Shown: in pieces, positions 1 to 63,715 of the stretch
How the letters are laid out: each line of letters begins with the position of its first letter
Numbering within the stretch: the stretch's first letter is position 1
Sequence record: PQ604604
DNA: 64,000 nt
Reading direction: 5' to 3' (one strand)
DNA from: Escherichia phage ECP_WGS_SA1
The notes under the pieces: model-generated
What the model was told of the DNA's origin: nothing
Database searches by the model: none
The model's input: only the letters and a program-made list of their open reading frames with translations
Program-made: the position numbers and the translations under genes

Positions 1-360
1 ATTTTGAATTAATTTAAATTAATTTTTTTCTACATCCTCATACTTATACTAAACTTATATTTATACGTATTATCCGTAAGATATAAGTAAAAACAAAGAC
101 TTGCGGCAATACGGATGATACGTCATGATACGCTTCAACCAGCCAGCAGCGGCTAAGTCATTGATTTGCATAACAAGCGGCGAAAGGGATGGATTTCTTT
201 TATGCGTATCAAACAGTACACCACGCACCACGGTCCGATATTCATTCAGCACTATGATTTATGTACGTTTACAGCCAATTTGAACATCAATCTGCACTTG
301 AATATAATGTTCATTCATTGTATAATTCACACTATTAATTTGCACTATGGGATTTGCACT

Positions 361-1889: not shown

Positions 1890-1969
1890 AATAAACTCCT
1901 ATTTGTTAGGGCGCTAGGCGCGAAAGAATTTTATTAAAGCGCCGCGCACGACGCTCTAAAAATCCTCTC

Positions 1970-2987: not shown

Positions 2988-3187
2988 NNNNNNNNNNNNN
3001 NNNNNNNNNNNNNNNNNNNNNNNNNNNNNNNNNNNNNNNNNNNNNNNNNNNNNNNNNNNNNNNNNNNNNNNNNNNNNNNNNNNNNNNNNNNNNNNNNNNN
3101 NNNNNNNNNNNNNNNNNNNNNNNNNNNNNNNNNNNNNNNNNNNNNNNNNNNNNNNNNNNNNNNNNNNNNNNNNNNNNNNNNNNNNNN
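2988..3187. other. Run of N (masked or unknown bases)
   Basis: Read directly. Confidence 0.99.
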
Positions 3188-5321: not shown

Positions 5322-5666
5322 NNNNNNNNNNNNNNNNNNNNNNNNNNNNNNNNNNNNNNNNNNNNNNNNNNNNNNNNNNNNNNNNNNNNNNNNNNNNNNN
5401 NNNNNNNNNNNNNNNNNNNNNNNNNNNNNNNNNNNNNNNNNNNNNNNNNNNNNNNNNNNNNNNNNNNNNNNNNNNNNNNNNNNNNNNNNNNNNNNNNNNN
5501 NNNNNNNNNNNNNNNNNNNNNNNNNNNNNNNNNNNNNNNNNNNNNNNNNNNNNNNNNNNNNNNNNNNNNNNNNNNNNNNNNNNNNNNNNNNNNNNNNNNN
5601 NNNNNATACACCTCACTTGTTAACGTATAATGAGTATAACTTAATAGCGCATAAAGTAAAGGCGCT

Positions 5667-38949: not shown

Positions 38950-39927
38950 TTAAAAATACTCCATATCGGTAATATCACGGAAGCACTTATACAAGGCAGA
39001 GCGCGGCACGTCAACGATGCCAAAGTTAAAGAATTTATATGTCAGATACTTGTTGCGATAATTCTCGCGATTCTCCCAAAGCATTTTTCTCTCTGCCATA
39101 GGCATTGAACCAGCGGAGACGCGGAAAGGAATCATTTCACCTTTCTCATCAACATATTTTGGATTGACAACCACAAATGATCCAAGGTATCCTTTTGCAA
39201 CCAAGCCTTCAGCCTCTTTCGAACGCTTAGTGCGACCCAACTCATCAATGAATGCTTCGTTGTTGTTCTCCATCATCTCAACGAAGTCTATGATCAGCCC
39301 TTCTTCATCGGTCCACGGCTTGTCCTTCCACACATCACGTGACTTTGGCGTCGCGCGGCCATGCTTGTATTTGCCCGTCCAAGACTTGCCATACAAGCCT
39401 TCATAGCCAAGCTGGTCTGCTTCGATTTGCATCGCCGCGTACTGTTCCATATTTTCGATGTTTCGATATTCGAGAGCGCGAAGGAATGGGCGTCGACCAT
39501 GGTTGATGAGGTGCTGATTGACTTCAGCAACTCTAGCGCGATATTTTGCATAACGCTTTTCAAAAGGCAAATCAGGGTCGCTGAAGTCATCAAACACCCA
39601 CCATGTAAAGTTAGTGATTGCATCAGTGTTCATGCATGCAGTATAGGCCTGTTGCATGACGTTCTTGTCGTTCGGATTACCGTCAATTAGCTCTCCATCA
39701 AGTCCGTGAATCAATTCACCCAAGAATAGGAACTCTTTTTTGATTTGAATATTGCGCAGCGCCATGCCGGACGTGCCCATTGGCAAGTTGTCATACGCCA
39801 TCGCGCGTATGCCATCGACCTTGAAGGATAATCCGCAAGGCAGCGGCACATCTTCGCCGCGCTCGATGATTTGTTTACGCTGGCAGCCTTTCATTGGTTT
39901 TAATGCTTTGATTTCTCCTGCCATCAC
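38950..39927 (-). CDS. ATP-dependent DNA ligase
   Basis: Adenylation motif I KVDGIR near the N-terminus; later EGLVAK-like motif. Confidence 0.65.
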   Translation of the reverse strand: MMAGEIKALKPMKGCQRKQIIERGEDVPLPCGLSFKVDGIRAMAYDNLPMGTSGMALRNIQIKKEFLFLGELIHGLDGELIDGNPNDKNVMQQAYTACMNTDAITNFTWWVFDDFSDPDLPFEKRYAKYRARVAEVNQHLINHGRRPFLRALEYRNIENMEQYAAMQIEADQLGYEGLYGKSWTGKYKHGRATPKSRDVWKDKPWTDEEGLIIDFVEMMENNNEAFIDELGRTKRSKEAEGLVAKGYLGSFVVVNPKYVDEKGEMIPFRVSAGSMPMAERKMLWENRENYRNKYLTYKFFNFGIVDVPRSALYKCFRDITDMEYF

Positions 39928-40517
39928 TCAAACTCCTTATTCATCACTTGTTCCAGCGCATAGGCGTAAGACTGATCAGTCGATTTGATGAACGTTCCGT
40001 TGTACATCACACCTTTACGGTCCTTGATGTCTTCATAGGCGGCTTGAGCGCAATCAGACAGTCGAAGTCCATAATCATGCGCTACGCCGGAAAGATAATC
40101 GACTGCGGCCATTATGGTGACATCAATATCCATACTCTGATTTTTAGCAATGGCGTCACCAAGCCGTCCGAGAGTCTTTGCCAAGCGAAGGATAAACGAG
40201 TGAGGGTGGGCACCTTTGTCAGCGCAACCGCCGCCGTTGATGTCTTCGATTTTTGCACCATTTTGCGCGGCAAGAATAGTTAACACAACAAGGCAATCGC
40301 CGATGTCATCCTTGATTGCAGCTTGTAAATCACAGATGGCCTGCTCTGTATATCCGATTTCAGTGTCAAAGAACACAAGGTCATGTAATTGATCAACGTG
40401 GTCGGTCAACTCCCCAAACTCGCTAATAAGCTTCGGGTATTGGTCCTTAAGGTCGCAGCCTTGGATGATGTTACGGTCAGAAGCCCACTGGCGAATGTTT
40501 GCATAAATCTGGTTCAT
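39924..40517 (-). CDS. Putative MazG-like nucleotide pyrophosphohydrolase
   Basis: Acidic helical motifs (EFGELTDHV); weak call. Confidence 0.3.
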   Translation of the reverse strand: MNQIYANIRQWASDRNIIQGCDLKDQYPKLISEFGELTDHVDQLHDLVFFDTEIGYTEQAICDLQAAIKDDIGDCLVVLTILAAQNGAKIEDINGGGCADKGAHPHSFILRLAKTLGRLGDAIAKNQSMDIDVTIMAAVDYLSGVAHDYGLRLSDCAQAAYEDIKDRKGVMYNGTFIKSTDQSYAYALEQVMNKEFE

Positions 40518-41089: not shown

Positions 41090-41950
41090 TTAAAACTCTT
41101 CTGCGTCGGTCGGAGTTTCGTTGACAGGACCAGCGGCACCGCTTGCTTCTTCCTGCTTGCTGCGGTCGATGTTAACGTTGCCGCCAACTACGTCGTTGTG
41201 GAACGCTTTGGCGACTTCGTACAGGCCTTTATCCTGCACCAGACCTTCCAGCTCAAACTTCAGAACTGACCAGGTGTTGCCATCTTTGGACTGAGACGCA
41301 GTACCCATGCGAACGATGTTCATAAAGGTCGGCGGAGTTTTCAGACCCTGCGGAGTCTGAACTTTCTTCTGCTGCAGAGCGGTCATCAGCATGCGAGACG
41401 GCTTGATCATGGAAGAAGTAAGAGACAGCATTGCGCTACCAAATTCGCCAGTTTCTTCGTTCAACAGGATCACGAAGTGGTTACGTGTGTCTGCGTAGTA
41501 AGGTGATTTCTTCTCGTGCACTTTGCCGTTTTCATCCGGCACAAATACCTTACCGTTGATTTCAACAGCGCGGCCTGCCGCGACTTCTGCATCAACGTGC
41601 TCTTTGGTGAATTCACCTTTAAAGCCTTTATCGTCGGACTCGCGACCGCCCCAAAGGATGAAGGTGCGTTTGAATGCGCAAGGGATGATCTGCACACCTT
41701 TCTTGCCGTCATACAATTCACCAGTAACGGTGTTGTACAGCATGCCAGCTTTTGCGCCAGGCACGTGTTTTGGATCATCTTCGTCGACCATCGGAGACAT
41801 CTTTTGCAGTACGACGATAAAAGGAATGGCATAAGCGTCGGCATCGGCACCTTCAAAGCCAGCGCCAAAATCGGTCATATCGACAAAATCAGCCATAGCG
41901 GACATCTGGGTGTTTTTCACTGCAACTTCGGTAGTTTCTTTCTTAGACAT
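41090..41950 (-). CDS. Hypothetical protein, 286 aa; possibly ssDNA-binding or annealing
   Basis: Guess from genomic context only. Confidence 0.35.
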   Translation of the reverse strand: MSKKETTEVAVKNTQMSAMADFVDMTDFGAGFEGADADAYAIPFIVVLQKMSPMVDEDDPKHVPGAKAGMLYNTVTGELYDGKKGVQIIPCAFKRTFILWGGRESDDKGFKGEFTKEHVDAEVAAGRAVEINGKVFVPDENGKVHEKKSPYYADTRNHFVILLNEETGEFGSAMLSLTSSMIKPSRMLMTALQQKKVQTPQGLKTPPTFMNIVRMGTASQSKDGNTWSVLKFELEGLVQDKGLYEVAKAFHNDVVGGNVNIDRSKQEEASGAAGPVNETPTDAEEF

Positions 41951-42009: not shown

Positions 42010-42567
42010 TTACTTTTTGCTTTTAGGCAAGGTTATTTTAGCTTCTTTATACTCAAAAACGCTAATATCTTCACTAACTGGATTACCCGCTTCCAGCTGT
42101 TCTTTAACAAATGACTTCAGTGTAGCAGAATGAACGCCTTGTTTCAACGTGGCTTCAACACCGTCTTCACGCAGCGCAGCAACAATCTCTTGCGCTTGCT
42201 CGATTTCTTCGCGACCGAACTCAGCCGTGACGCTGGACTTGATCAAGCCGCCGTAACCGTTGTTGACAAGCCAATCGAATACCTTCAATTCATTTTCTTT
42301 CTTGATTGAAGCATTTACTTTTGACTCGACCTTGATTTTGGTCTTGTCTTCAAGCTTGATTTCGGACACGCCAAGCTCATCCATGACGCCAGGAAGCAGA
42401 ACAGTTTTGATTTCACTGATGCGCTGCTTTTGCATATCAGCTTCATCTTCAAGCTCTGTCAAAGCTTCTTGGCGTTCTGCCAATTCCGATACTAAGCGCG
42501 CAAGGCGCTCTTGAATGCTCTCAGGAGCGACCTGCGGCAAATCATCTTCCCAATTAATGTTGCTCAT
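42010..42567 (-). CDS. Hypothetical acidic coiled-coil protein, 185 aa
   Basis: ORF. Confidence 0.4.
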   Translation of the reverse strand: MSNINWEDDLPQVAPESIQERLARLVSELAERQEALTELEDEADMQKQRISEIKTVLLPGVMDELGVSEIKLEDKTKIKVESKVNASIKKENELKVFDWLVNNGYGGLIKSSVTAEFGREEIEQAQEIVAALREDGVEATLKQGVHSATLKSFVKEQLEAGNPVSEDISVFEYKEAKITLPKSKK

Positions 42568-44425: not shown

Positions 44426-44847
44426 GACAATTCCTCTAAATACTTGATGATGTGATGNNNNNNNNNNNNNNNNNNNNNNNNNNNNNNNNNNNNNNNNNNN
44501 NNNNNNNNNNNNNNNNNNNNNNNNNNNNNNNNNNNNNNNNNNNNNNNNNNNNNNNNNNNNNNNNNNNNNNNNNNNNNNNNNNNNNNNNNNNNNNNNNNNN
44601 NNNNNNNNNNNNNNNNNTGACCTTTCTCAAATGCGCTCTTGAAAGGAAGAGTGGTGGCCCTTGCAGGCCACGATTCAAAGAACTTCATTTCAAGCCAAAA
44701 GCCGCGCCCTTTCCGGTTGGTGCCGATTACGTCCGGCACACCATCACCCGTCATTGATTCGATTCTTTGAAGCTTCAAGATTGATTCTGAATGCTTCTTC
44801 AAAGGCACGAATATGTATTTCTGTTCACGGTTATTTGTTGCCATCTG
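44422..44847 (-). CDS. Putative VRR-NUC nuclease; C-terminal part masked by N (44458-44617)
   Basis: GVPDVIGTNRKGRGFWLEMKF resembles the VRR-NUC core. Confidence 0.4.
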   Translation of the reverse strand, partial: QMATNNREQKYIFVPLKKHSESILKLQRIESMTGDGVPDVIGTNRKGRGFWLEMKFFESWPARATTLPFKSAFEKGXXXXXXXXXXXXXXXXXXXXXXXXXXXXXXXXXXXXXXXXXXXXXXXXXXXXXXHHIIKYLEELS

Positions 44848-48270: not shown

Positions 48271-48324
48271 ATTGGCCTCCTACAAAAAGGCCGCCCATTA
48301 GGACGGCCACAGATTTAAGATTCG

Positions 48325-48876
48325 TTATACAGTGTACGGAGTACCGTCTTGATTCAACCGCACAATGAACTTAAGGTCGACACCGATGATCTCACGCGTA
48401 TCAAAGATAACATAGTTGTAACGACGCTGACCAGCAATATTTGGGTTGGTGTGAGAGTCGGTTACGACTTCCTGCGCAACCTGAATGCCTTCTTCTTTAA
48501 AGAACTTGCGCCATTCAGCAAGTTCAGCGGCAGTCACGTGCATGCCAAGATGGCTAACCTGATTGTCATGCGCATCGATGTATTCGATGTTTTCGTGAAT
48601 CCAGTTGCAACCTTTTGTATAGTCAAGAATTTCAAGCTCAAGAGGCTTACCAGCGCCGCCATCGGTGCCGTTGCCAGCCTGATAGTTGAAGCGCAAGTCA
48701 GCTTCGTTGGTGCAATCGCCGCGCTGACCCTTAAAGACATCAGCTTCAAATACGCGACCAGTAGCAACAACGTGATCATGGAACCATTCTGTCAGGCCGA
48801 TTTTAGCCAGGAAATTCTGTGCGCGCTGAGCACCTGGAATTGACAGGGCGATTTGTTCAATTTTAAAATGTGGCAT
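48325..48876 (-). CDS. Hypothetical protein, 183 aa (possibly VOC/glyoxalase-like fold)
   Basis: ORF; weak resemblance only. Confidence 0.35.
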   Translation of the reverse strand: MPHFKIEQIALSIPGAQRAQNFLAKIGLTEWFHDHVVATGRVFEADVFKGQRGDCTNEADLRFNYQAGNGTDGGAGKPLELEILDYTKGCNWIHENIEYIDAHDNQVSHLGMHVTAAELAEWRKFFKEEGIQVAQEVVTDSHTNPNIAGQRRYNYVIFDTREIIGVDLKFIVRLNQDGTPYTV

Positions 48877-48966
48877 TTTGTTTCCTTAATTAAATATTAT
48901 TGATTAATTACTGTGTTGCCTTCGNNNNNNNNNNNNNNNNNNNNNNNNNNNNNNNNNNNNNNTGAT

Positions 48967-49650
48967 TTATTTCCCAAATGGAATATCAGTACCAGACATA
49001 AAGCGCCATGCGCCCGTAATTAAGATATGGCGAATGAAGTCAGCAATTACTTGCGGCTCAGTCTCCAATCCATTCATCAGCGCCTTTTTCTGGTATTCAG
49101 CAGCATACTCAGGAGTCCAGCCGCGAGTCGCGCAAACAGCATCTTCAATCTGTTTGGACATGCCAGTACCACGTAGCTTATTAGGACTAATAGAAAATAC
49201 CGTGATCCCGTATTTAGGCGTAAGCTCGTGAGCCATCTGCTTGCTAATCATGAGCGCAGCAGCCTTGGAAGCATTATAACACAAGCTGGACGTCATAGGA
49301 ATATGCGCAGCGTTGGAAACGATATTGATCACAAAACCTTTGTTGTCGATAAGACTTTTCAGCGCGGCTTGAGTCGTGTTGACGAAAGAGAAGGCGTTGG
49401 TGTGCATAACGCGATTGAACTCTTCGTAGTTAACATCTTCAAACCAGTTGTTGGAGTTGACGCCAGCACAGTTGATCAAGCCTTCTACATCATATNNNNN
49501 NNNNNNNNNNNNNNNNNNNNNNNNNNNNNNNNNNNNNNNNNNNNNNNNNNNNNNNNNNNNNNNNNNNNNATGACCGTAAGCGCCAAGGGTGTCAAAAATA
49601 GATTTACCAAGACCGGAATTGGAACCTGTTACAACAATTACTTTTTTCAT
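48967..49650 (-). CDS. Short-chain dehydrogenase/reductase (SDR) family oxidoreductase; internal N-run
   Basis: Rossmann motif TGSNSGLGKS; catalytic YNASKAA (YxxxK). Confidence 0.65.
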   Translation of the reverse strand: MKKVIVVTGSNSGLGKSIFDTLGAYGHXXXXXXXXXXXXXXXXXXXXXXXXXYDVEGLINCAGVNSNNWFEDVNYEEFNRVMHTNAFSFVNTTQAALKSLIDNKGFVINIVSNAAHIPMTSSLCYNASKAAALMISKQMAHELTPKYGITVFSISPNKLRGTGMSKQIEDAVCATRGWTPEYAAEYQKKALMNGLETEPQVIADFIRHILITGAWRFMSGTDIPFGK

Positions 49651-49715
49651 TTATTTATCCTTTTTGGACTTCGTTTCGATGAGATAAATATAACTCATCG
49701 AAACGCACAAGTAAA

Positions 49716-50588
49716 CTATTTATTGAAATTAATATTGTGGGTGTTGACGAGACGTTCACACATGGCGCTGTAAACACCATCGTCGTGTATAGAGTCTTCG
49801 TGCTTCAGGCCGCTGATTGCAAAGCGTGTAAGCTTGACAATCTTAAGCTCGAACAGATGCCACATGTGGTAGTCTTCCGGCGTTTTCAACGTTACGCCAT
49901 TAGGGAAAAGCACCTGCATAACCTGGCCAACCATCACGGCATTATCGCCATAGACAGCGTTGCGCTCACGGAAGGTTGCTGCCATTGCATCAAGAATATC
50001 GGCGGCAGTTGCCGGAGATTGTTCAACTTCCACAGCCTTAGTCTCTTCTTGCCCCGTTGCGCTTGGATCAATTGCTAATTGTTGCACCACTTCACCTGCC
50101 TTGCAAAGATTAAACGTAAAAGCGATTTTATTTTGCGCAACGGAATTATAATACAAGGCTTCATCTTGCATCCGCGCGAGTACGTCTTGTCGGTCGTCGA
50201 ATACATTGATGATTCTATAATCGCCGTGCCGCAATGCGTGCGATAGCCATGCAGATTTCATAATAGTTGATGGACGTTTGTCGCCATAGTCTCTCATCTT
50301 GATTGTAAATTCATCAAAAGGAAAAACATTGTCCAGACGTTCAAAAGTCACTTGTCTGTATTTTTCTGGCCTTGCAGTCCAATATTCAACCGCCTCACCG
50401 CGAAGAGATGCCGACTCTACTGCTGATGCAATGTGAGGATAGAACTGATCATAACCAATACCGCTGTGATAGTCATCATAGTCTGACAACGGACCTGCCA
50501 CCTTGATGCGGTCTAAACGCCAACGGTCATCAAACAGCGTTCCGTCAAGGTCGAATACGTTTAAGATTTCGCTGTTTTTAATGCTCAT
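49716..50588 (-). CDS. HAD-superfamily phosphatase domain fused to an uncharacterised C-terminal domain
   Basis: HAD motif I FDLDGTLFDD at the N-terminus; C-terminal 140 aa unassigned. Confidence 0.5.
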   Translation of the reverse strand: MSIKNSEILNVFDLDGTLFDDRWRLDRIKVAGPLSDYDDYHSGIGYDQFYPHIASAVESASLRGEAVEYWTARPEKYRQVTFERLDNVFPFDEFTIKMRDYGDKRPSTIMKSAWLSHALRHGDYRIINVFDDRQDVLARMQDEALYYNSVAQNKIAFTFNLCKAGEVVQQLAIDPSATGQEETKAVEVEQSPATAADILDAMAATFRERNAVYGDNAVMVGQVMQVLFPNGVTLKTPEDYHMWHLFELKIVKLTRFAISGLKHEDSIHDDGVYSAMCERLVNTHNINFNK

Positions 50589-51388
50589 CCTTTTGATACT
50601 CCATCTTTAGCAACTGGATTGTTGGTGATTGGCATCGCATTCCAAAACTGGATGCGCAACTCTTCTTGCTGTGCCGTGGTATCCATCCAATCACGATACC
50701 ACGGGCAATGGGCTTTACCGTGACGAGGAAACGCGCACTTACCCATACCGATGCATTGCGGCTGCAGTAATGGATTCGCCCACGGGTGCACCTTGAGGAC
50801 TTCCGCAACCATTGCGCGGAACACTTCTTGATACTCTCCTTGTGTGCGCGTGCACAAGCGGTTGGAAGCCATCTGTTGCAGCGTGCGCAAGTTGAACTTT
50901 GCCATGATATGCGTTTGCATATTAGAAGGCAACACGGCACGTGCATCTTGAATCTCTGCGCCAGCCGCGCGAAGCTCTTGATACAAAGCATCGATAGTCG
51001 CCATCGCATCGTCCCANNNNNNNNNNNNNNNNNNNNNNNNNNNNNNNNNNNNNNNNNNNNNNNNNNNNNNNNNNNNNNNNNNNNNNNNNNNNNNNGGACG
51101 AATCGCATCAAACGCAGATGATTCCTGAGCGCGGCTTGTGCGTTCTTGATATGCGCCTGTGCGTGTGCGTACCATCTGATGCGTCATGTTCTTTGATACA
51201 TCTGTGATGTCAAATATATAGTCCACAAAGTCAAAAGGCGACTTGATTGTATCAAGCATGTAGCGCCAATGCTCTTGCTTCTCTGATTCCGTCATCTCAG
51301 AGACAGGCTTACCAGTCATGCGCGTGTTCTTTGTTTCCAGCAAAAGGTCAAGTGCATCTTGGGTGTATCGAATTAATTCAACTTTCAT
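50585..51388 (-). CDS. Flavin-dependent thymidylate synthase (ThyX)-like protein with a non-canonical signature; internal N-run
   Basis: Segments ARAVLPSN..T and C-terminal CPW align with ThyX; signature position reads RTR where RHR is expected. Confidence 0.55.
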   Translation of the reverse strand: MKVELIRYTQDALDLLLETKNTRMTGKPVSEMTESEKQEHWRYMLDTIKSPFDFVDYIFDITDVSKNMTHQMVRTRTGAYQERTSRAQESSAFDAIRXXXXXXXXXXXXXXXXXXXXXXXXXXXWDDAMATIDALYQELRAAGAEIQDARAVLPSNMQTHIMAKFNLRTLQQMASNRLCTRTQGEYQEVFRAMVAEVLKVHPWANPLLQPQCIGMGKCAFPRHGKAHCPWYRDWMDTTAQQEELRIQFWNAMPITNNPVAKDGVSKG

Positions 51389-51401
51389 TTTAATTATCCT
51401 A

Positions 51402-51848
51402 TTAACGGTAATTCACTAGTTGCTGATCACCAGAGAAGGTGCAATGATAAACGAATTGTGCGTTATAAAGCAACTGAAAACTTTTCTTTGGTTCATTATT
51501 AGAACTCATTGATGTAAAGATTTCTGCACCAGAACGGTTTTCACCAATCAGATTGATAAAGCCGCCAGTTGAACGAGGCTGGACGAAAGTGAAACGTTGC
51601 ACCCACGGAGTACGGTTGGCACCTTTCCCTGTGAATCCCTGAATCTGAATATTCAGACCTTCTTGCTCGTTAACACCGATGTAAGTGGTAATCTTTGCAC
51701 CAGTCGTTGCTGCGGTCTTACCGTCCATCGCTTCGCAATCGTAAACAGCGATTGAATCGGAAGTACGGATGGCAGCTTCAGTCGCTTCCATATACATGGT
51801 GCCGAGAATAGCAGTCGCGGCAAGAGCGATTCCAGTGATTCGTTTCAT
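51402..51848 (-). CDS. Secreted protein, 148 aa
   Basis: Signal-peptide-like N-terminus MKRITGIALAATAILG. Confidence 0.45.
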   Translation of the reverse strand: MKRITGIALAATAILGTMYMEATEAAIRTSDSIAVYDCEAMDGKTAATTGAKITTYIGVNEQEGLNIQIQGFTGKGANRTPWVQRFTFVQPRSTGGFINLIGENRSGAEIFTSMSSNNEPKKSFQLLYNAQFVYHCTFSGDQQLVNYR

Positions 51849-51913
51849 TTTCGTTTCCTCTATGAGTTCTGCTTCAATGATTAAAGTATACGCCCATTGA
51901 AGAAGAAAGCAAA

Positions 51914-52909
51914 TTATTTATTAGCAATATAAGCAAATTTTTGATAGTTATTTGCTTTGATGAGTTTTTCAACTTCAACAAGGTCATGAGCGACGTCATC
52001 AAGCAAAATGTTGCGCCAGGTAGCAAATCGACCGACACTGAACACGTTCAAATCCATAGTCAGCTGCAGGAGTAGGGCGTGTCGCAAGTCTTTCGGAATG
52101 TCGACAATCTTGCCATATTTCTGGTCGACCTTTTCAACTTCTTCAAGAGCGATGTCACTCCATGAAAGGCCAAATGCAGTCAACACTTCGTCGACTTCTG
52201 CGCGAAGCTTCATGTCACGGTAACGAGTGATGCCGCCGGCAGCTTCAACTGCAGCTTCACTTACGCTGACTAAAGGAATTGTTTCAATGATAAGCGTGTC
52301 ACCAGTAATTGATGCGCGGTAAGTTCTGACGGAGTAGTCAGGGAAGTAAATTGTCTGATACAAATCACACTTACGTTTAATCTTAAAGCGGTAAACGCGA
52401 ATGTTTGCTTTATCAAATGAGAAATCAAGCTTTTGATCAATCCCAGCCAGCTTCATCATGACTGGCAGCGGCGACGTATTGATGATTGGTGTCTCGCTAT
52501 AGCCACAAAGAGTATCAACCGGAGTATTAAAGAATATGCGGTCACCCAGTTTGTCGACAAGCTGATCATAAAAGTCATCAGGCGCAATATAACGCGTTGC
52601 AGCCTTAAGCTTCATGATTGAACGGCTACCAAACTGATTGGTGACCTTCATGGAATACATATTGGCAAGGTTAATTGGGCAATGGTCGTGGTAGTAGTTG
52701 CCGCGAAAATACACAGCCTTGTCAACTGTCACGGCCTTAAAGGGGATTCCGGTAATACGGCTTACTTCTTCGCCACGGAAGCGTAGCAACGCCTTGTGCT
52801 GTTGCACCCGTTCCCCTGCTTCGTACACAATAGAGTTCGGGAAGTGACACGCTGTGATAAGTCCTGCTAATCCGCCGCCGATAATCATTACAGGTTGTTT
52901 CATGTTCAT
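51914..52909 (-). CDS. FAD/NAD(P)-binding oxidoreductase
   Basis: N-terminal dinucleotide-binding motif VMIIGGGLAGL; AAAGGA RBS. Confidence 0.5.
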   Translation of the reverse strand: MNMKQPVMIIGGGLAGLITACHFPNSIVYEAGERVQQHKALLRFRGEEVSRITGIPFKAVTVDKAVYFRGNYYHDHCPINLANMYSMKVTNQFGSRSIMKLKAATRYIAPDDFYDQLVDKLGDRIFFNTPVDTLCGYSETPIINTSPLPVMMKLAGIDQKLDFSFDKANIRVYRFKIKRKCDLYQTIYFPDYSVRTYRASITGDTLIIETIPLVSVSEAAVEAAGGITRYRDMKLRAEVDEVLTAFGLSWSDIALEEVEKVDQKYGKIVDIPKDLRHALLLQLTMDLNVFSVGRFATWRNILLDDVAHDLVEVEKLIKANNYQKFAYIANK

Positions 52910-53042
52910 TTGTCCTTTGTGGGTGATATGAGAAGTATAATAGCTAAATTATTTTACAGCAACAAGTCATTTTATTTAGTACAGATGAAAAAAAGACCCA
53001 CAACAAGTGTGGGTCAATTACCGCTGCATAACCGTCCTAAGG

Positions 53043-53888
53043 TTATTCCGCTTGATCACCGTCTTCGGCATCTTCGTTGGATTCAACATCGACAAACTCG
53101 ATGTGACCCATCTCTTCCAGCTTGCTCAGGTAGGAGCGAACGGAAGCGCCAAACAGTTGATCTTTAACTTTTTCGCCCAGCTCATCGATAGACTGCGCCA
53201 CGCCAACTTCGCCTTCTTTGATCGCCGCCAGAACGCGTCCACGGGTGGAATGCTCTTGCGGCTGGCTCAGGCCATTGCCAGTGTAGATGAAGTGGGTTGC
53301 TTTTGCACGACGCTGACCGTTCGCCTTTTTAGCAGCCTTACGTTCTGCGATGGCTTTGCGACGTTCTTCAGCTTCTTTCTTACGCTGTTCTTTCTGCTTT
53401 TCTGCAGCTTCTTTAGCCGCAATCTTAGCAGCTTCACGCTCTGCCTTGCGTTTCGCTTTAGCTTCTTCTTTAGCCTTCTCTTTTTCGGCCTTCGCTGCAG
53501 CACGGGCCTGATCACGCTCTGCTTTCTTAGCAGCAGCTTGTTCAGCTTTCAGGCGCTTGGCTTCTTCTTTAGCCTTTGCCTTTTCGATTTCTTTTGCTGC
53601 TTTAGCGGCTTCACGCTCTGCTTTCTTAGCAGCGGCCTTTTCTGCACGCTCTTTAGCTTTCTTAGCTGCTTCTTCAGCACGCTTCTGAGCCTTCTCATCA
53701 GCAGCCTGCTTGCGTTTCAGCGCAGCTTCTTCACGCTTGGCTTGTTTTTCCTGCTCACGCTTCTGGCGTTTTTCTTCGGCTTCTTTCTTTTTAGCCAGAC
53801 GTTTTTCTTCAGCCACGCGACGACGTTCTGCTGCAGCTGCTTGTTTTTCTTCTTTAGATAATACTTTGATTGCTTCGGCCATGTTCAC
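53043..53888 (-). CDS. Highly charged K/E/A-rich protein (predicted long single alpha-helix) with a small C-terminal domain
   Basis: About 200 aa of alternating K/R and E with A; periodic AAGAAGC repeats in the DNA. Confidence 0.55.
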   Translation of the reverse strand: MNMAEAIKVLSKEEKQAAAAERRRVAEEKRLAKKKEAEEKRQKREQEKQAKREEAALKRKQAADEKAQKRAEEAAKKAKERAEKAAAKKAEREAAKAAKEIEKAKAKEEAKRLKAEQAAAKKAERDQARAAAKAEKEKAKEEAKAKRKAEREAAKIAAKEAAEKQKEQRKKEAEERRKAIAERKAAKKANGQRRAKATHFIYTGNGLSQPQEHSTRGRVLAAIKEGEVGVAQSIDELGEKVKDQLFGASVRSYLSKLEEMGHIEFVDVESNEDAEDGDQAE

Positions 53889-61518: not shown

Positions 61519-61866
61519 ATGGCTCATGTTAAAGACGAAGTTTTATACGGCGCAGAGATTAAGAAGCGNNNNNNNNNNNNNNNNNNNNNNNNNNNNNNNN
61601 NNNNNNNNNNNNNNNNNNNNNNNNNNNNNNNTGGCGTATCCGGCACGAAGGAGATGGGCGTGTTGGTGAAAGACATTCGCGTTGGGGATGTCATGGTCAT
61701 CGACCGACAAGCGCGAGTCGTTATCCAGGTGCAACCGAACGATGATGAAGGGTGTGTCCTATTGAAGCTGAAGAAGCTTTCATCCAGCCCAGCAAAGGCT
61801 ATCATCAAGAAGGTCTGGCCCGAAGGATTACGCAAACTCATTCGTCGACCCGTGGAGAATGTGTGA
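61519..61866 (+). CDS. Hypothetical protein; internal N-run
   Basis: ORF. Confidence 0.35.
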   Translation: MAHVKDEVLYGAEIKKXXXXXXXXXXXXXXXXXXXXXXGVSGTKEMGVLVKDIRVGDVMVIDRQARVVIQVQPNDDEGCVLLKLKKLSSSPAKAIIKKVWPEGLRKLIRRPVENV

Positions 61867-62102
61867 TGGAAGATTATATTAACGCCATGTATATTGCATT
61901 CTATGTCGTTCAACTTCCCAATGGCGCGGTATTTTATGGCGAGTACACCTTTGACGTTCAATATGACGTTTCAGAGCGTACAGTGTTAACAAGAGAGTTG
62001 ATTGCGGACCTTAAGGACGACATCAAACGCGTCGCGCGGCAGCAGTTCAATTTGGATGACACAGTCATCGTTCGTATAACCGGAATAACAGAGGTGCAGT
62101 GA
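61866..62102 (+). CDS. Hypothetical protein, 78 aa
   Basis: ORF with stop/start overlap. Confidence 0.4.
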   Translation: MEDYINAMYIAFYVVQLPNGAVFYGEYTFDVQYDVSERTVLTRELIADLKDDIKRVARQQFNLDDTVIVRITGITEVQ

Positions 62103-62431
62103 TGACCCGTGATCAGATACTCGCCGCGCATGAACGTGNNNNNNNNNNNNNNNNNNNNNNNNNNNNNNNNNNNNNNNNNNNNNNNNNNNNNNNNNNNNNN
62201 NNNNNNNNNNNNNNNNNNNNNNNNNNNNNNNNNNNNNNNNNNNNNNNNNNNNNNNNNNNNNNNNNNNNNNNNNNNNNNNNNNNNNNNNNNNNNNNNNNNN
62301 NNNNNNNNNNNNNNNNNNNNNNNNNNNNNNNNNNNNNNNNNNTCTATCGATTCTCTCACCGGACGGGTGATACAAAGATAACAAGGACACGTGACCAGAT
62401 AGAGATTGACCTACTCCACTATGTAAAATGA
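62102..62431 (+). CDS. Hypothetical protein; mostly masked
   Basis: ORF spanning N-run 62139-62342. Confidence 0.3.
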   Translation: MTRDQILAAHERXXXXXXXXXXXXXXXXXXXXXXXXXXXXXXXXXXXXXXXXXXXXXXXXXXXXXXXXXXXXXXXXXXXXXYRFSHRTGDTKITRTRDQIEIDLLHYVK

Positions 62432-62433
62432 AT

Positions 62434-62460
62434 ATCAAAAAGGTGAGCTAAATGCTTGCC
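62434..62460 (+). repeat. 27-bp sequence TCAAAAAGGTGAGCTAAATGCTTGCCT, repeated exactly at 63974-64000
   Basis: Read directly at both positions. Confidence 0.85.
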
Positions 62461-62516
62461 TTTTCTTTTATCAATACTTATACTCTTTTCATCAATACTA
62501 ACAAGCGAGGTGAATT

Positions 62517-62834
62517 ATGATTTACTTAGGCATCGACCAGGAACAAGACGAGCGGTTAGGAAGCGTGTTAAACGTAGAATTAAACACAGCTGTACACGTC
62601 AAGCCTTGGCCAGAGGCTCATCCCGACGTAGTTGTACCCGTTGCGCCTTGGACGCGTTACGTTGCCATTGACGATGAAGGCCTTGTGCATTGTTACTCAG
62701 AAAAACCGACATACTTCGAAAAGTATCGCCAATGGCTTATGACTGGTTGGGCAAAGGTGCGCTGTTGCGGCGAAGTCGGTCTGGAAGGCTGGAGCTTCAA
62801 GGCTAGTGAATCGTGTGTCGAGGTGCAATTATGA
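62517..62834 (+). CDS. Hypothetical protein, 105 aa
   Basis: ORF with GAGGTG RBS. Confidence 0.45.
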   Translation: MIYLGIDQEQDERLGSVLNVELNTAVHVKPWPEAHPDVVVPVAPWTRYVAIDDEGLVHCYSEKPTYFEKYRQWLMTGWAKVRCCGEVGLEGWSFKASESCVEVQL

Positions 62835-63049
62835 ATGCCGCGCTGGGTAAGCTGTCTTTCAACAAGCGCAATGAGTTGCGCATGGTGTCTCGTTTTCAAN
62901 NNNNNNNNNNNNNNNNNNNNNNNNNNNNNNNNNNNNNNNNNNNNNNNNNNNNNNNNNNNNNNNNNNNNNNNNNNNNNNNNNNNNNNNNNNAACAATTACN
63001 ANATGCTGCTTATAANCTGCAGCAATATGCTATGGAGTATGCAAAATGA
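62831..63049 (+). CDS. Hypothetical protein; mostly masked
   Basis: ATGA overlap start; N-run 62900-62990. Confidence 0.3.
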   Translation: MNAALGKLSFNKRNELRMVSRFQXXXXXXXXXXXXXXXXXXXXXXXXXXXXXXXQLXXAAYXLQQYAMEYAK

Positions 63050-63330
63050 AGATGCAAAGATGTCCACATTGCTTGTCCACGATGCGGCTTACTGCTGAAG
63101 AATATTTACATCACGTTAACGTTTGTGAGGCTAATCCTGAAAATTCGACGCGTTACTATTATCACTATCACGCAGAAGCGGAAGATGGATCAGGCGCAAC
63201 AGGAATCGTTACCACGAAAGAAATGGTGATCACCAAAAAGGCGTATGAAAGTCTGCTTGATACAATAAAGGAAGTATCTGGAAAAGAAATAATCTGCATC
63301 AAATCTTTGTCTTTCTTACACGAGGTGTAA
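63046..63330 (+). CDS. Small CxxC protein, paralog 1
   Basis: N-terminus MKMQRCPHCLSTMRL ... H..C.ANP. Confidence 0.45.
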   Translation: MKMQRCPHCLSTMRLTAEEYLHHVNVCEANPENSTRYYYHYHAEAEDGSGATGIVTTKEMVITKKAYESLLDTIKEVSGKEIICIKSLSFLHEV

Positions 63331-63331
63331 A

Positions 63332-63715
63332 ATGAGAATGAAACGTTGTCCGTATTGCCACGATGTAATGCATCTTCCGCATGAAGAGTTCGTGCAGCAC
63401 ATGACTAATTGTGATAAGAATCCTAAGAGCGAAAGCCAGCTTGAAGAAAGAATGTTTCTGGTGTCATTCAANNNNNNNNNNNNNNNNNNNNNNNNNNNNN
63501 NNNNNNNNNNNNNNNNNNNNNNNNNNNNNNNNNCATTGAGAAGCGACATTGACTCAATGCAGCTTGCGGCCTGGATTAACGTTAAGGAAGGCATCACTCC
63601 GCACTTTATCGCGCGCATCCAGTCCCAGATTCTACAAATCAAGCGCGAATACAACCGTGACATCACTGAAGTGAAGGTTCTTTCCATAACGCCGATGAAT
63701 AAGGAGTTACCGTGA
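63332..63715 (+). CDS. Small CxxC protein, paralog 2; internal N-run
   Basis: N-terminus MRMKRCPYCHDVMHL ... H..C.KNP. Confidence 0.45.
   Translation: MRMKRCPYCHDVMHLPHEEFVQHMTNCDKNPKSESQLEERMFLVSFXXXXXXXXXXXXXXXXXXXXXXLRSDIDSMQLAAWINVKEGITPHFIARIQSQILQIKREYNRDITEVKVLSITPMNKELP

What the first reader, a model, noticed from the sequence alone, without database searches (positions are those of the whole stretch)
48325..52909. Redox and nucleotide-enzyme cluster next to the replication genes: candidate nucleotide or DNA modification pathway
Six co-directional minus-strand genes sit between the DnaQ-like exonuclease and the K/E-rich gene: an unassigned 183-aa protein, an SDR oxidoreductase (TGxxxGxG, YxxxK), a HAD phosphatase domain fused to an unassigned 140-aa C-terminal domain, a ThyX-like enzyme with an altered signature, a signal-peptide protein and an FAD-binding oxidoreductase. 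A ThyX alone would be ordinary dTMP supply, but two extra redox enzymes and a phosphatase fusion in the same block are not needed for that. Together they look like a multi-step pathway acting on a nucleotide or on DNA.
Basis: partly seen in the sequence, partly recalled or inferred. Interest (0 to 1): 0.7.

Follow-up and report, generated by a model that had tools for sequence, protein, structure and literature searches.

The report
Candidate DNA thymine hypermodification gene block
A terminator-bounded block of enzyme genes in this PB1-like coliphage, built around an unusual ThyX, a phage-only flavoenzyme and a phosphatase fusion, is the best available candidate for the still-unassigned genes that attach sugar-like groups to thymine at TG sites in this phage family's DNA.

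Summary
Six minus-strand genes (48325-52909) lie between two terminator hairpins, in a phage about 97% identical to Escherichia phage WFH (Wifcevirus, Lindbergviridae).

Three genes form a core that travels together. These are the 331-aa flavoenzyme, a divergent ThyX and a HAD phosphatase fused to a four-helix domain. They occur in about 360 sequenced phages, in all 44 informative viral contigs, and in an unrelated Rhizobium jumbo phage. The SDR and the VOC-like gene are an optional pair, present or absent together. The signal-peptide gene is a genus-specific insert.

A 2025 preprint showed that Pbunavirus relatives F8 and 14-1 carry sugar-type hypermodified thymidine at TG, with the genes unknown. 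Both have the core trio. BASEL data show Wifceviruses resist EcoRI and EcoRV but not EcoP1I.

I found a sequence-only signature in the window. Of 108 GATC sites, 107 abut a TG, as do all 14 EcoRI, 7 EcoRV and 9 AatII sites. EcoP1I sites do not. Lambda lacks this signature and F8 shows it for other sites.

Best reading, about 50%: the block encodes this modification pathway. No step is demonstrated. The main rival is plain dTMP supply plus unrelated enzymes.

The parts
52995..53015 (-). Intrinsic terminator hairpin upstream of the block. It ends the K/E-rich gene's transcript.
   Evidence: 8-bp stem with 5 GC pairs followed by a T7 run. Annotated as a terminator in NC_048194.
51914..52909 (-). 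331-aa FAD-type flavoenzyme (phrog_4828), a phage-only family. Its fold belongs to the UGM / amine-oxidase / PPO / group-A monooxygenase class. Core member 1.
   Evidence: - N-terminal IIGGGLAGL motif. PHROG hit 2.5e-149, function unknown. No Pfam or NCBIfam hit.
- AF2 model: pLDDT 84.4, pTM 0.81.
- Foldseek against PDB: best TMq 0.65 to UDP-galactopyranose mutase 4dsh_B at 14% identity. MAO, PPO and flavin monooxygenases score equally well by E-value.
- Distribution: 1955 homologs, 1132 clusters at 50% identity, 361 phage records.
51402..51848 (-). 148-aa protein with a predicted signal peptide. It is a Wifcevirus-specific insert and probably not part of the pathway.
   Evidence: No family hit in any library. 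Homologs were found only in the three Wifcevirus loci L013-L015 among 80 related loci.
50585..51388 (-). 267-aa divergent ThyX-like flavoprotein. Core member 2.
   Evidence: - Thy1 1.7e-27. TIGR02170 scores 81.8 bits, below its 87.9 cut-off.
- Compared with T. maritima ThyX in 62 family members: R78, R80, R90, R147, R165, R174 and Q75 are invariant. H53->I, H59->F and H178->R occur in 62/62; H79->T/S and Y91->V/A in 61/62.
- Its stop overlaps the HAD gene's start by 4 nt.
50094..50588 (-). N-terminal HAD phosphatase domain (PNKP-type, no cap, no kinase domain) of the 290-aa fusion protein. Core member 3a.
   Evidence: HAD_PNKP at 33.5 bits, above the 27.6 cut-off. The DxDGT, T, K/R and DD motifs are nearly invariant in alignment A2. 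phrog_4889 hit 8e-122.
49719..50018 (-). C-terminal domain of about 100 aa forming a four-helix bundle, distantly related to DUF6378. Core member 3b.
   Evidence: - AF2 pLDDT 92.4, four helices.
- In close relatives it is far better conserved than the HAD domain.
- 15 of 27 family members hit DUF6378 weakly, best E-value 0.0012.
- It stands alone as gene 59 in Microbacterium phage Sparcetus (hmmsearch 6e-25) and is fused to a HAD domain in Rhizobium phage RHph_Y65 gp205.
48967..49650 (-). 227-aa classical short-chain dehydrogenase/reductase. Optional sub-module, paired with the VOC-like gene.
   Evidence: - adh_short 3.4e-29. TGCNSGLG and YNASK motifs are present. An Asp at the end of strand beta-2 (..VGIDL..) suggests NAD rather than NADP, by inference.
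- All NCBIfam hits fall far below family cut-offs.
- In 44 informative loci, SDR and VOC are both present in 32 and both absent in 11.
48325..48876 (-). 183-aa VOC (glyoxalase/dioxygenase-superfamily)-like protein. Optional sub-module, paired with the SDR.
   Evidence: - Glyoxalase_4 E-value is only 0.091 for this protein. However, 11 of 25 family members hit it, best 6.7e-6.
- tblastn finds it in 54 phage records, none of them Pseudomonas.
- It lies next to an SDR in Microbacterium phage Sparcetus (34% identity).
48289..48308 (-). Intrinsic terminator hairpin closing the block, before the Pol III epsilon-like gene.
   Evidence: 8-bp stem with 7 GC pairs followed by a T5 run. Annotated as a terminator in NC_048194 and Mansfield.

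Best explanation
**Claim.** The block is the Wifcevirus version of a conserved, flavin-centred module. It supplies or installs the TG-specific, sugar-type thymidine hypermodification of PB1-like phages (Lindbergviridae) and so protects the phage DNA from restriction.

**What is shown.**
- The core trio (UGM-fold flavoenzyme, divergent ThyX, HAD phosphatase plus four-helix domain) is co-inherited one-to-one-to-one across the family and beyond it.
- Relatives with the trio carry modified T at TG.
- This genome's restriction sites are arranged as if T in TG were protected.

**What is inferred (proposed mechanism).**
1. The ThyX-like enzyme and the flavoenzyme carry out flavin chemistry at C5 of uracil or thymine through the exocyclic-methylene intermediate known from ThyX. 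This happens either while the nucleotide is made or by re-oxidising the thymine methyl group in DNA.
2. A sugar, or a sugar phosphate or polyol, adds to that carbon.
3. The cap-less HAD phosphatase removes a phosphate left on the adduct or on its precursor.
4. Where present, the NAD-type SDR and the VOC-like metalloenzyme oxidise and isomerise the sugar part.

Which protein reads the TG context is unknown.
For: 1. **Discrete unit.** The six genes lie between two terminators, and the ThyX and HAD genes overlap by 4 nt.
2. **Co-distribution.** The flavoenzyme is in 361 phage records, the helical domain in 363, and this ThyX subfamily in 356 at >=80% coverage, with the same genus counts. In 44 viral contigs with enough downstream DNA, ThyX is present in 44, HAD in 42 and the helical domain in 43. 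The same order holds in six divergent MAG contigs, where the flavoenzyme and ThyX ORFs overlap in three.
3. **Independence of lineage.** The 206-kb Rhizobium phage RHph_Y65 (Kleczkowskaviridae) has the flavoenzyme (35% identity), this ThyX type (38%) and a HAD+helical-domain fusion within 6 kb. Microbacterium phage Sparcetus has an FAD oxidoreductase, HAD, SDR, VOC and the helical domain as five consecutive genes.
4. **Experimental link.** Pbunaviruses F8 and 14-1 have novel thymidine derivatives of 362 and 390 u replacing about one quarter of T, in a TG motif. The responsible genes are not identified (PMC12191111). Both phages carry the trio.
6. **Sequence signature in the window.** Sites with a TG abutting them: 107/108 GATC (null 0.52, p 3.5e-29), 14/14 GAATTC, 7/7 GATATC and 9/9 GACGTC. 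Only 16/70 AGACC (EcoP1I) sites do. The pattern recurs in Bas99 (GATC 83/83), Pantoea Kyle (28/28), Serratia (138/148) and Aeromonas (20/21) phages. F8 shows it for GTAC, GTCGAC and GACGTC. Lambda does not show it.
7. **Elimination.** Outside structure and replication, the window shares few genes with F8:
   - Recognisable enzymes: the trio, a MazG-like protein and a ligase.
   - No recognisable enzyme domain: two Pam3-like proteins, the K/E-rich protein and two unknowns.
8. **Systematic changes in ThyX.** The ThyX subfamily has lost His53 in 62/62 members and His79 and Tyr91 in 61/62. His53 is the residue that stacks on folate in T. maritima ThyX (my knowledge of Koehn et al. 2012).
Against: - No enzyme activity or knockout exists, so every mechanistic step is inference.
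- The synteny is largely within one phage family and always sits next to the DnaE/epsilon replicase. It could reflect shared descent of a replication and nucleotide-supply module.
- The ThyX-like protein keeps all dUMP- and FAD-binding arginines. A mononucleotide enzyme cannot by itself explain TG specificity.
- No glycosyltransferase, DNA-recognition domain or kinase is detectable in the block.
- F8 and 14-1 make their modifications without the SDR and VOC genes.
- RHph_Y65 carries the trio but shows no TG signature. The possibly analogous module in mycobacteriophage Benzema shows none either.
- Other shared proteins of unknown function could be the real modifying enzymes. These are the homologs of F8 ORF076 and ORF077 and the Pam3 gp33/gp34-like proteins.
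- Moderate flank biases occur in every genome tested, including lambda. Only the near-100% cases carry weight.
Confidence: 0.5

Rival explanations
1. **Ordinary nucleotide supply.** The ThyX-like protein is simply the phage's dTMP synthase for a fast DnaE-type replicase. The HAD fusion is a nucleotidase or 3'-phosphatase. The flavoenzyme, SDR and VOC proteins are unrelated accessory enzymes that stay nearby by descent. The TG modification is made by other genes.
For: - Thy1 homology, with all dUMP/FAD-binding arginines kept.
- The module always sits beside the Pol III alpha and epsilon genes.
- Cluster D mycobacteriophages and Gordonia phages have a similar FAD / HAD 5'-nucleotidase / SDR / DnaE / ThyX-like layout, with no known modification.
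- Other shared proteins of unknown function exist.
Against: - It does not explain why a phage-only flavoenzyme is co-inherited 1:1 with this ThyX type, with overlapping ORFs in some lineages.
- It does not explain the subfamily-wide loss of His53, His79 and Tyr91.
- It does not explain why the trio reappears in an unrelated jumbo phage that already has RNR and dUTPase genes.
- It leaves the proven Pbunavirus modification without any enzyme candidate.
Confidence: 0.3
2. **Cofactor support for ThyX.** The flavoenzyme acts as a reductase or electron or one-carbon donor for the altered ThyX. The SDR acts as a FolM/PTR1-like pterin or folate reductase. Together they keep dTMP synthesis running independently of host pools, with no role in DNA modification.
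For: - The flavoenzyme and ThyX genes are tightly linked.
- The folate-stacking His53 is lost, which suggests a changed co-substrate site.
- SDRs of the FolM/PTR1 type exist in ThyX-using organisms (my knowledge).
Against: - The SDR's best NCBIfam matches are generic sugar, polyol and acyl reductases, not FolM, and all are far below cut-off.
- The SDR and VOC genes are absent from about 300 Pbunaviruses that keep this ThyX.
- The flavoenzyme fold class (UGM / MAO / PPO) is not a typical NAD(P)H:flavin reductase.
- The idea gives the HAD phosphatase and the helical domain no role.
Confidence: 0.1
3. **Sugar or cell-envelope auxiliary genes.** A true UDP-galactopyranose mutase, a sugar dehydrogenase, an isomerase and a sugar phosphatase remodel host surface glycans such as Galf-containing O-antigen.
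For: - The Mansfield and Hera annotators named the flavoenzyme UDP-galactopyranose mutase.
- The best TM-score is to UGM.
- BASEL Wifceviruses depend on the Galf-containing O16 antigen (the O16 structure is from my knowledge).
Against: - There is no GLF or other Pfam hit, and no sequence or profile match to any solved UGM. Identity is 11-14%, and amine oxidases and monooxygenases score equally well.
- The gene is fixed in the replication module of phages of Pseudomonas, Xanthomonas, Rhizobium, Burkholderia and others with unrelated surface glycans.
- It is always next to ThyX.
Confidence: 0.03

Closest known systems
TG-motif thymidine hypermodification of Pbunavirus F8 and 14-1 (Yee et al. 2025 preprint, PMC12191111)
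   Same: - Same phage family, Lindbergviridae.
- Same conserved trio in the same place in the genome.
- The window shows a TG-linked restriction-site signature, as F8 does.
- The phenotype is resistance to many restriction systems.
   Different: - The chemistry of Wifcevirus DNA has not been measured.
- Wifceviruses add an SDR and a VOC gene that Pbunaviruses lack.
- F8 DNA is cut by EcoRI. Wifceviruses resist EcoRI in vivo, apparently because all their sites abut TG.
- The preprint names no biosynthetic genes.
Known thymidine hypermodification pathways of phages M6, ViI, PaMx11, phiW-14 and SP10 (Lee et al. 2018; PMC8989533)
   Same: - The target is C5 of thymidine, only part of the T is replaced, and the role is anti-restriction.
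- The proposed chemistry goes through an exocyclic C5-methylene.
- A flavoenzyme acts on DNA in PaMx11.
   Different: - Those pathways use a ThyA-type dUMP hydroxymethylase, a P-loop 5-hmdU DNA kinase and aGPT-Pplase amino-acid:DNA transferases. None of these was detected here.
- The appended groups there are amino-acid derived, not sugar-like.
- The flavoenzyme here matches PaMx11 gp47 only in the GxGxxG motif.
Canonical flavin-dependent thymidylate synthase ThyX (for example T. maritima TM0449, PDB 1O26)
   Same: Clear homology (profile E-value 2.7e-12 to 3n0b). All arginines that bind dUMP and FAD are kept, as is Gln75.
   Different: - The RHR...S.R signature becomes R(T/S)R...(T/S/A).R.
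- His53, His59 and His178 are replaced in all 62 family members; His79 and Tyr91 in 61 of 62.
- It scores below the TIGR02170 equivalog cut-off.
- Lindbergviridae members add a C-terminal extension of about 60-100 aa.
- It is always paired with the flavoenzyme gene.
UDP-galactopyranose mutase and the wider amine-oxidase / PPO flavoenzyme fold
   Same: - N-terminal FAD-binding beta-alpha-beta motif.
- A C-terminal GR(F/L)a.(W/Y) motif (by eye).
- Best structural superposition, TMq 0.65.
- UGM uses flavin N5 as a nucleophile on a sugar carbon. This is chemically akin to the N5-iminium of ThyX (my knowledge).
   Different: - 11-14% identity.
- No Pfam or PDB sequence or profile match.
- About 40-180 residues shorter than the solved UGMs that matched.
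- Substrate-binding residues were not checked.
- The family is found only on phage or phage-like contigs.
Base J of kinetoplastids and glycosylated hydroxymethyl-pyrimidines of T-even phages (my knowledge)
   Same: - The product class is a sugar attached through the 5-methyl carbon of a pyrimidine in DNA.
- Base J is made on DNA from thymine, in specific sequence contexts.
   Different: - Base J needs an Fe/2-oxoglutarate JBP hydroxylase and a glucosyltransferase.
- T-even phages need a ThyA-type hydroxymethylase and glycosyltransferases.
- No such protein is detectable here.

Membership tests
ThyX (flavin-dependent thymidylate synthase, Pfam Thy1 / TIGR02170) | Sequence homology to the Thy1 domain | tested here: met
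   Pfam Thy1 1.7e-27, 96.9 bits against a 24.8 cut-off. The family profile hits 23 solved ThyX chains, best 2.7e-12.
ThyX (flavin-dependent thymidylate synthase, Pfam Thy1 / TIGR02170) | ThyX signature RHRxxSxxxxSxR | tested here: not met
   The window/WFH protein reads RTRTGAYQERTSR. Across 62 family members, His79 is T/S in 61 and Ser88 is T in 43, S in 15 and A in 4.
ThyX (flavin-dependent thymidylate synthase, Pfam Thy1 / TIGR02170) | Score above NCBI's equivalog cut-off | tested here: not met
   TIGR02170 gives 81.8 bits against a cut-off of 87.9.
ThyX (flavin-dependent thymidylate synthase, Pfam Thy1 / TIGR02170) | dUMP/FAD-binding arginines (Tm R78, R80, R90, R147, R165, R174) | tested here: met
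   All are invariant in 62/62 sequences.
ThyX (flavin-dependent thymidylate synthase, Pfam Thy1 / TIGR02170) | Folate-stacking His53 and Tyr91 | tested here: not met
   His53 is Ile in 62/62. Tyr91 is Val or Ala in 61/62.
ThyX (flavin-dependent thymidylate synthase, Pfam Thy1 / TIGR02170) | Catalyses dUMP + CH2-THF + NADPH -> dTMP | not testable with these tools
   This needs an enzyme assay.
UDP-galactopyranose mutase | FAD-binding Rossmann motif and overall fold | tested here: inconclusive
   GxGxxG is present. The best TMq is 0.65 to 4dsh_B, but flavin monooxygenases, MAO and PPO have equal or better E-values at 9-14% identity.
UDP-galactopyranose mutase | Sequence membership (Pfam GLF, or a match to solved UGMs) | tested here: not met
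   No Pfam or NCBIfam family hit. phmmer and a 25-sequence profile against PDB found no UGM.
UDP-galactopyranose mutase | UDP-sugar-binding arginines and tyrosines; mutase activity | not tested
   No structural superposition at residue level was available.
Known thymidine hypermodification systems (5-hmdU route) | ThyA-type dUMP hydroxymethylase, 5-hmdU DNA kinase, aGPT-Pplase transferase | tested here: not met
   None appeared in Pfam, PHROG or NCBIfam scans of 29 non-structural proteins of the genome (9+10+10). Small ORFs and structural genes were not scanned. The BASEL authors also report no known protection genes.
Known thymidine hypermodification systems (5-hmdU route) | Homology to the PaMx11 gp47 flavin-dependent lyase | tested here: not met
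   hhalign of profile A1 against gp47 aligned only 24 N-terminal columns, probability 28%.
Classical short-chain dehydrogenase/reductase | TGxxxGxG cofactor motif, S...YxxxK catalytic motif, adh_short profile | tested here: met
   adh_short 3.4e-29. VTGCNSGLG and YNASK are present in the unmasked sequence. No specific subfamily reached its cut-off.
HAD phosphatase, PNKP type | DxDxT nucleophile motif and HAD motifs II-IV; profile above cut-off | tested here: met
   HAD_PNKP at 33.5 bits, above 27.6. The motifs are nearly invariant in A2.
Polynucleotide kinase/phosphatase (as annotated in RefSeq) | P-loop kinase domain | tested here: not met
   There is no kinase domain. The rest of the protein is a linker plus the four-helix domain.
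VOC (glyoxalase / bleomycin-resistance / dioxygenase) superfamily | Profile match | tested here: inconclusive
   The window protein scores 13.5 bits against a cut-off of 27. 11 of 25 homologs match Glyoxalase_4, best 6.7e-6.
DUF6378 / all-alpha NTP-pyrophosphatase-like domains | Profile match or fold match | tested here: inconclusive

The most novel reading that the evidence does not exclude
**Proposal.** The trio performs a folate-, kinase- and glycosyltransferase-independent, purely flavin-driven alkylation at C5.

**How it could work.** The UGM-like flavoenzyme forms a flavin-N5 iminium with an open-chain aldose, as UGM does. Alternatively, the ThyX chemistry runs backwards on DNA thymine to regenerate the exocyclic methylene. 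The sugar carbon or a sugar hydroxyl is then joined to C5 or its methyl carbon.

**Why the published data do not exclude it.** The published masses are isomeric with C-C linked products:
- 362 u = dU + 1-deoxypentitol-1-yl = C14H22N2O9
- 390 u = dU + hexosyl = C15H22N2O10

The thymine 'methyl' carbon could therefore come from the sugar rather than from folate. This would fit the family-wide loss of the folate-stacking His53. If true, it would be a new enzymatic way to write bulky groups into DNA.
Probability: 0.12. Interest if true: 0.95.

Novelty: new variant of a known kind. Interest (0 to 1): 0.78.

Why it matters
Pbunaviruses are among the most used therapeutic phages for Pseudomonas aeruginosa. 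In 2025 their DNA was found to carry a new sugar-type thymidine hypermodification whose genes are unknown.

This work contributes four things:
- **A short candidate list.** Three core genes and two tailoring genes make the pathway directly testable by knockout and reconstitution.
- **An explanation for an unexplained phenotype.** It accounts for the restriction resistance of Wifceviruses noted by the BASEL authors, and predicts exactly which enzymes will and will not cut their DNA.
- **A sequence-only test.** Checking whether restriction sites survive only when they abut TG can flag this modification in uncultured phages.
- **Scale.** The flavoenzyme family has over a thousand 50%-identity clusters in metagenomes. 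If it is a DNA- or nucleotide-modifying enzyme, it is a large unexplored enzyme class and a possible tool for site-specific DNA derivatisation.

Tried and rejected
- **Flavoenzyme by sequence.** phmmer and a profile against PDB hit only the GxGxxG stretch. I therefore rejected the 'UDP-galactopyranose mutase' name used in some records.
- **VOC protein.** A PDB profile search and hhalign against E. coli GloA both gave nothing. The assignment rests only on Pfam hits of relatives.
- **Cysteine motif in ThyX.** Nine Lindbergviridae sequences share a four-cysteine motif in the ThyX C-terminal extension. It looked like a metal site, but no Cys column is conserved in >=60% of 62 wider family members. 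I dropped it.
- **Hexamer-palindrome test.** Avoided sites lack TG/CA (p 5e-4 to 5e-3). The test is confounded, because AA/TT-containing palindromes are equally spared even in lambda. I keep it only as supporting evidence.
- **CCGG flank bias.** 74/76 sites have a 5'T or 3'A, which looked like a second signature. It is explained by overlapping avoidance of CCSGG, RCCGGY and TCCGGA.
- **F8 versus 14-1 comparison.** I looked for the gene behind their different adducts. The most divergent protein is ORF70 (57% identity). It has only sub-threshold Pfam matches (best to a DnaJ-type zinc-finger domain), so its function stays unknown. Inconclusive.
- **Actinophage FAD oxidoreductases.** Homology of the Benzema, Ranch and Sparcetus proteins to the flavoenzyme is unproven: hmmsearch E-value 7, hhalign probability 45%.
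- **Literature.** I found no paper naming the Pbunavirus modification genes.
- **Reference genomes.** A scan of 185,579 reference genomes found the flavoenzyme on only six MAG contigs with phage-like synteny, so there is no cellular context to learn from.

Full report
**Identity of the window.** The region 48325-52909 is 97.4% identical, at the same coordinates, to Escherichia phage vB_EcoM_WFH, and 93-97% identical to 27 other Wifcevirus records. Wifcevirus belongs to the PB1-like family Lindbergviridae, whose members share only 12 proteins (PMC12451628). The window contains 32 masked N runs. Three fall in the block, so I read the missing residues of the SDR and ThyX proteins from the WFH record.

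**Checking the observation.** All six minus-strand ORFs exist as described. They lie between the RNase_T/DnaQ-like exonuclease and a K/E-rich protein. Two strong terminator hairpins bracket them, at 53015-52995 and 48308-48289, and other annotators marked the same hairpins. The ThyX stop overlaps the HAD start by 4 nt. The block is therefore a discrete transcription unit.

**What each protein is.**
- The SDR is a classical short-chain dehydrogenase (adh_short 3.4e-29). No specific subfamily could be assigned.
- The 290-aa protein has two parts. The first is a catalytically complete, cap-less HAD phosphatase of the PNKP type (33.5 bits, above the 27.6 cut-off), with no kinase domain. The second is a linker and a C-terminal domain of about 100 aa.
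- The ThyX-like protein is a true Thy1 homolog (1.7e-27) but falls below the TIGR02170 equivalog cut-off.
- The 183-aa protein is weakly VOC-like. It scores E 0.091 itself, while 11 of 25 relatives hit Glyoxalase_4, best 6.7e-6.
- The 148-aa protein matches nothing.
- The 331-aa protein has a GxGxxG motif and no Pfam or NCBIfam match, and belongs to phrog_4828 of unknown function. Its AlphaFold model has pLDDT 84. The model resembles UDP-galactopyranose mutase best by TM-score (0.65). It resembles amine oxidases, protoporphyrinogen oxidase and flavin monooxygenases equally well by E-value, all at 9-14% identity. Sequence and profile searches of PDB found no UGM. The 'UDP-galactopyranose mutase' label in some records is therefore not justified. 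'FAD enzyme of the UGM/amine-oxidase fold' is as far as the evidence goes.

**A conserved module.**
- The flavoenzyme has 1955 homologs in the large protein collection, almost all on contigs of about 60-73 kb. It forms 1132 clusters at 50% identity.
- In the annotated phage collection it occurs in 361 records: 292 Pseudomonas, 26 Escherichia, and Serratia, Rhizobium, Xanthomonas, Pantoea and others. The helical domain occurs in 363 records with the same genus counts.
- The ThyX subfamily occurs in 356 records at >=80% coverage. There is an identity gap between these (>=38%) and all other phage ThyX proteins (<=33%).
- In 80 IMG/VR loci the order is always flavoenzyme, ThyX, HAD, helical domain, optionally SDR and VOC, then Pol III epsilon and alpha. 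Among the 44 loci with at least 7 kb downstream, ThyX is present in 44, HAD in 42 and the helical domain in 43. SDR and VOC are both present in 32, both absent in 11, and split in 1.
- Pbunaviruses have only the trio. The 148-aa gene is found only in Wifcevirus.
- Reference genomes contain the flavoenzyme on only six MAG contigs with the same synteny. In three of them the flavoenzyme and ThyX ORFs overlap.

**Beyond the family.**
- The 206-kb Rhizobium phage RHph_Y65 has the flavoenzyme, this ThyX type and a HAD+helical-domain fusion within 6 kb.
- Microbacterium phage Sparcetus has five consecutive genes next to DnaE: an FAD oxidoreductase, a HAD phosphatase, an SDR (36% identity), the VOC protein (hmmsearch 1e-48) and a free-standing helical domain (6e-25). 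A glycosyltransferase and a ThyX-like gene lie nearby.
- Cluster D mycobacteriophages and Gordonia phages show a looser analogue, whose homology I could not prove.

**The ThyX subfamily.** I aligned 62 distinct ThyX-like proteins that sit next to the flavoenzyme with T. maritima ThyX. Every arginine that binds dUMP or FAD is invariant, and so is Gln75. His53, His59 and His178 are replaced in all 62; His79 and Tyr91 in 61 of 62. From my knowledge of the T. maritima folate complex (Koehn et al. 2012), His53 stacks on the folate. The nucleotide site therefore looks intact, while the co-substrate site looks different.

**Link to DNA modification.**
- Yee et al. (PMC12191111) found that F8 virion DNA resists enzymes whose sites contain TG.
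- They also found that F8 and 14-1 contain new nucleosides of 362 and 390 u replacing about a quarter of T. They read these as a tetrose sugar-alcohol derivative and a cyclised pentose derivative of thymidine.
- They stress that Pbunaviruses lack known modification genes.
- F8 and 14-1 both carry the trio.
- I found no later paper naming the genes.
- Its raw data give EOP 0.3-0.9 on EcoRI and about 1 on EcoRV, EcoCFT_I and EcoCFT_II, with no plaques on EcoP1_I. The study's S2 table lists 38 EcoRI, 8 EcoRV and 89 EcoP1_I sites for Bas99.

**A sequence-only signature.**
- In the window, 107 of 108 GATC sites have a 5' T or a 3' A. That puts a TG dinucleotide against the site on one strand (null 0.52, p 3.5e-29). 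All nine flank classes without TG are empty apart from one site.
- The same holds for 14/14 EcoRI, 7/7 EcoRV and 9/9 AatII sites.
- Among hexamers, AGATCT, CGATCG and GGATCC are absent while TGATCA has 48 copies. AGTACT, CGTACG and GGTACC are absent while TGTACA has 10.
- EcoP1I sites (AGACC) contain no TG, and only 16 of 70 abut one. This matches the one sensitivity seen in vivo.
- Bas99 repeats the pattern (GATC 83/83). So do Pantoea phage Kyle (28/28), Serratia phages (138/148) and an Aeromonas phage (20/21).
- F8, the positive control, shows it for GTAC (77/104, null 0.40), GTCGAC (9/9) and GACGTC (7/7). Lambda, the negative control, shows nothing comparable.
- Caveats. An unbiased scan finds moderate flank biases in every genome, so only the near-complete cases are meaningful. 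A similar-looking CCGG bias is explained by overlapping site avoidance. The hexamer-palindrome version of the test is confounded by base composition.
- The simplest reading is that T in TG is protected in this phage too. Sites for the relevant host enzymes have survived only where that T touches them.

**Narrowing the candidates.** A six-frame comparison of the whole genome with F8 shows few shared genes outside structure and replication:
- Recognisable enzymes: a ligase, a MazG-like protein and the trio.
- No recognisable enzyme domain: two Pam3 gp33/gp34-like proteins, the K/E-rich protein's C-terminus and two unknowns of about 210 aa.

**Mechanism.** None of it is demonstrated. I propose that the two flavoproteins work at C5 through the exocyclic-methylene chemistry known for ThyX. 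A sugar or sugar phosphate is then added, the cap-less HAD phosphatase removes a phosphate, and the NAD-type SDR and VOC protein tailor the sugar where they are present. The difficulties are real:
- The ThyX-like protein looks like a mononucleotide enzyme, which cannot explain TG specificity.
- No DNA-recognition or transferase domain is visible in the block.
- Pbunaviruses manage without the SDR and VOC genes.
- RHph_Y65 shows no TG signature.

The main rival is that ThyX is just the dTMP synthase of a DnaE-type replication module, and the modification is encoded by one of the unknown shared genes.

**Novelty and verdict.** Thymidine hypermodification is a known kind of system, and the Pbunavirus adducts are already reported. 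Three things are new here:
- A concrete candidate gene set, unrelated to the known 5-hmdU kinase and transferase route. There is no hydroxymethylase, kinase or aGPT-Pplase, and no similarity to PaMx11 gp47 beyond the FAD motif.
- The extension of the modification to Wifcevirus and other enterobacterial genera by a sequence signature.
- An explanation for the BASEL restriction phenotype.

I give the best explanation 0.5 confidence and the finding an interest of 0.78.

Noticed in passing
whole window; for example GATC sites, GAATTC sites, TGATCA (48 copies): Restriction sites survive only where they abut a TG dinucleotide: GATC 107/108, EcoRI 14/14, EcoRV 7/7, AatII 9/9. The same holds in Bas99 and in Pantoea, Serratia and Aeromonas relatives. 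F8 shows it for other sites, and lambda does not show it.
   Followed up: yes
whole window: Very strong avoidance of hexamer palindromes. 22 of 64 occur at <=25% of expectation; for example AGCGCT, CCGCGG, CGATCG, GAGCTC, CTCGAG and GGATCC all have 0 copies. GGTCTC (Eco31I/BsaI) has 1 copy against about 10-24 expected. CCGG occurs only as (A/G)CCGGA or TCCGG(C/T), which fits combined avoidance of CCSGG, RCCGGY and TCCGGA.
   Followed up: partly
window 53043-53888 (-): K/E/A-rich 281-aa protein (phrog_4765, called TolA-like in one record). Its non-repetitive C-terminal domain of about 85 aa is 54% identical to F8 ORF066. It keeps the same position, between the Dda helicase and the flavoenzyme, in the loci that also carry the Dda helicase upstream. 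It may bind DNA.
   Followed up: partly
window 38950-39927 (-) and 39924-40517 (-): An ATP-dependent DNA ligase-like gene and a MazG-like pyrophosphatase are adjacent and are shared with F8 (gp048, gp049). The MazG-like enzyme could belong to the same nucleotide or modification pathway.
   Followed up: no
window 41090-41950 (-) and 42010-42567 (-): Two conserved proteins match the Pfam families 'Pam3 gp34-like' (4e-86) and 'Pam3 gp33-like / DUF7307' (3e-37). Their function is unknown and they are shared with Pbunavirus, so they are alternative candidates for the modification machinery.
   Followed up: no
window 157-831 (+) and 1266-1898 (-): ORFs homologous to F8 ORF076 and ORF077, of unknown function with no Pfam hit. 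The same sequences recur at 67739-69480 of the WFH record, so that record carries a long terminal repeat.
   Followed up: no
window 2988-3187, 5322-7611 (several runs), 44458-44617, 48925-48962, 49496-49569, 51017-51095, 61569-63533 (several runs): 32 masked N runs totalling 3144 bases. Three lie inside the finding, and two of those interrupt the SDR and ThyX ORFs. Outside the masks, the window differs from the WFH record by about 2.6% in this region.
   Followed up: partly
window 50585-50770 (C-terminal part of the ThyX-like gene); L011:7032-7949: Lindbergviridae ThyX-like proteins carry a C-terminal extension with a CxxxxxxC...C motif, plus a Cys next to the catalytic Arg174 equivalent (RLC). 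It is conserved in 8 of 9 sequences from named phages, but not across the 62 wider family members.
   Followed up: partly
L093 (Mycobacterium phage Benzema) 6530-14790; L094 (Gordonia phage Ranch) 5802-16352: Actinobacteriophages with DnaE-type polymerases have a similar gene string: FAD oxidoreductase, HAD 5'-nucleotidase, methyltransferase, small helical protein, SDR, DnaE, ThyX-like. Their FAD proteins end in IGRYGxWxKGVLT, which resembles SIGRFATWRNILLDD in the window protein. Homology is unproven.
   Followed up: partly
L011 13894-15090 versus L012 13997-15301: F8 and 14-1 carry different adducts. In the replication region they differ most in ORF70 (57% identity; only sub-threshold Pfam matches, best to a DnaJ-type zinc-finger domain) and in the linker of the HAD fusion (81%). 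ORF70 has no counterpart in the window.
   Followed up: partly
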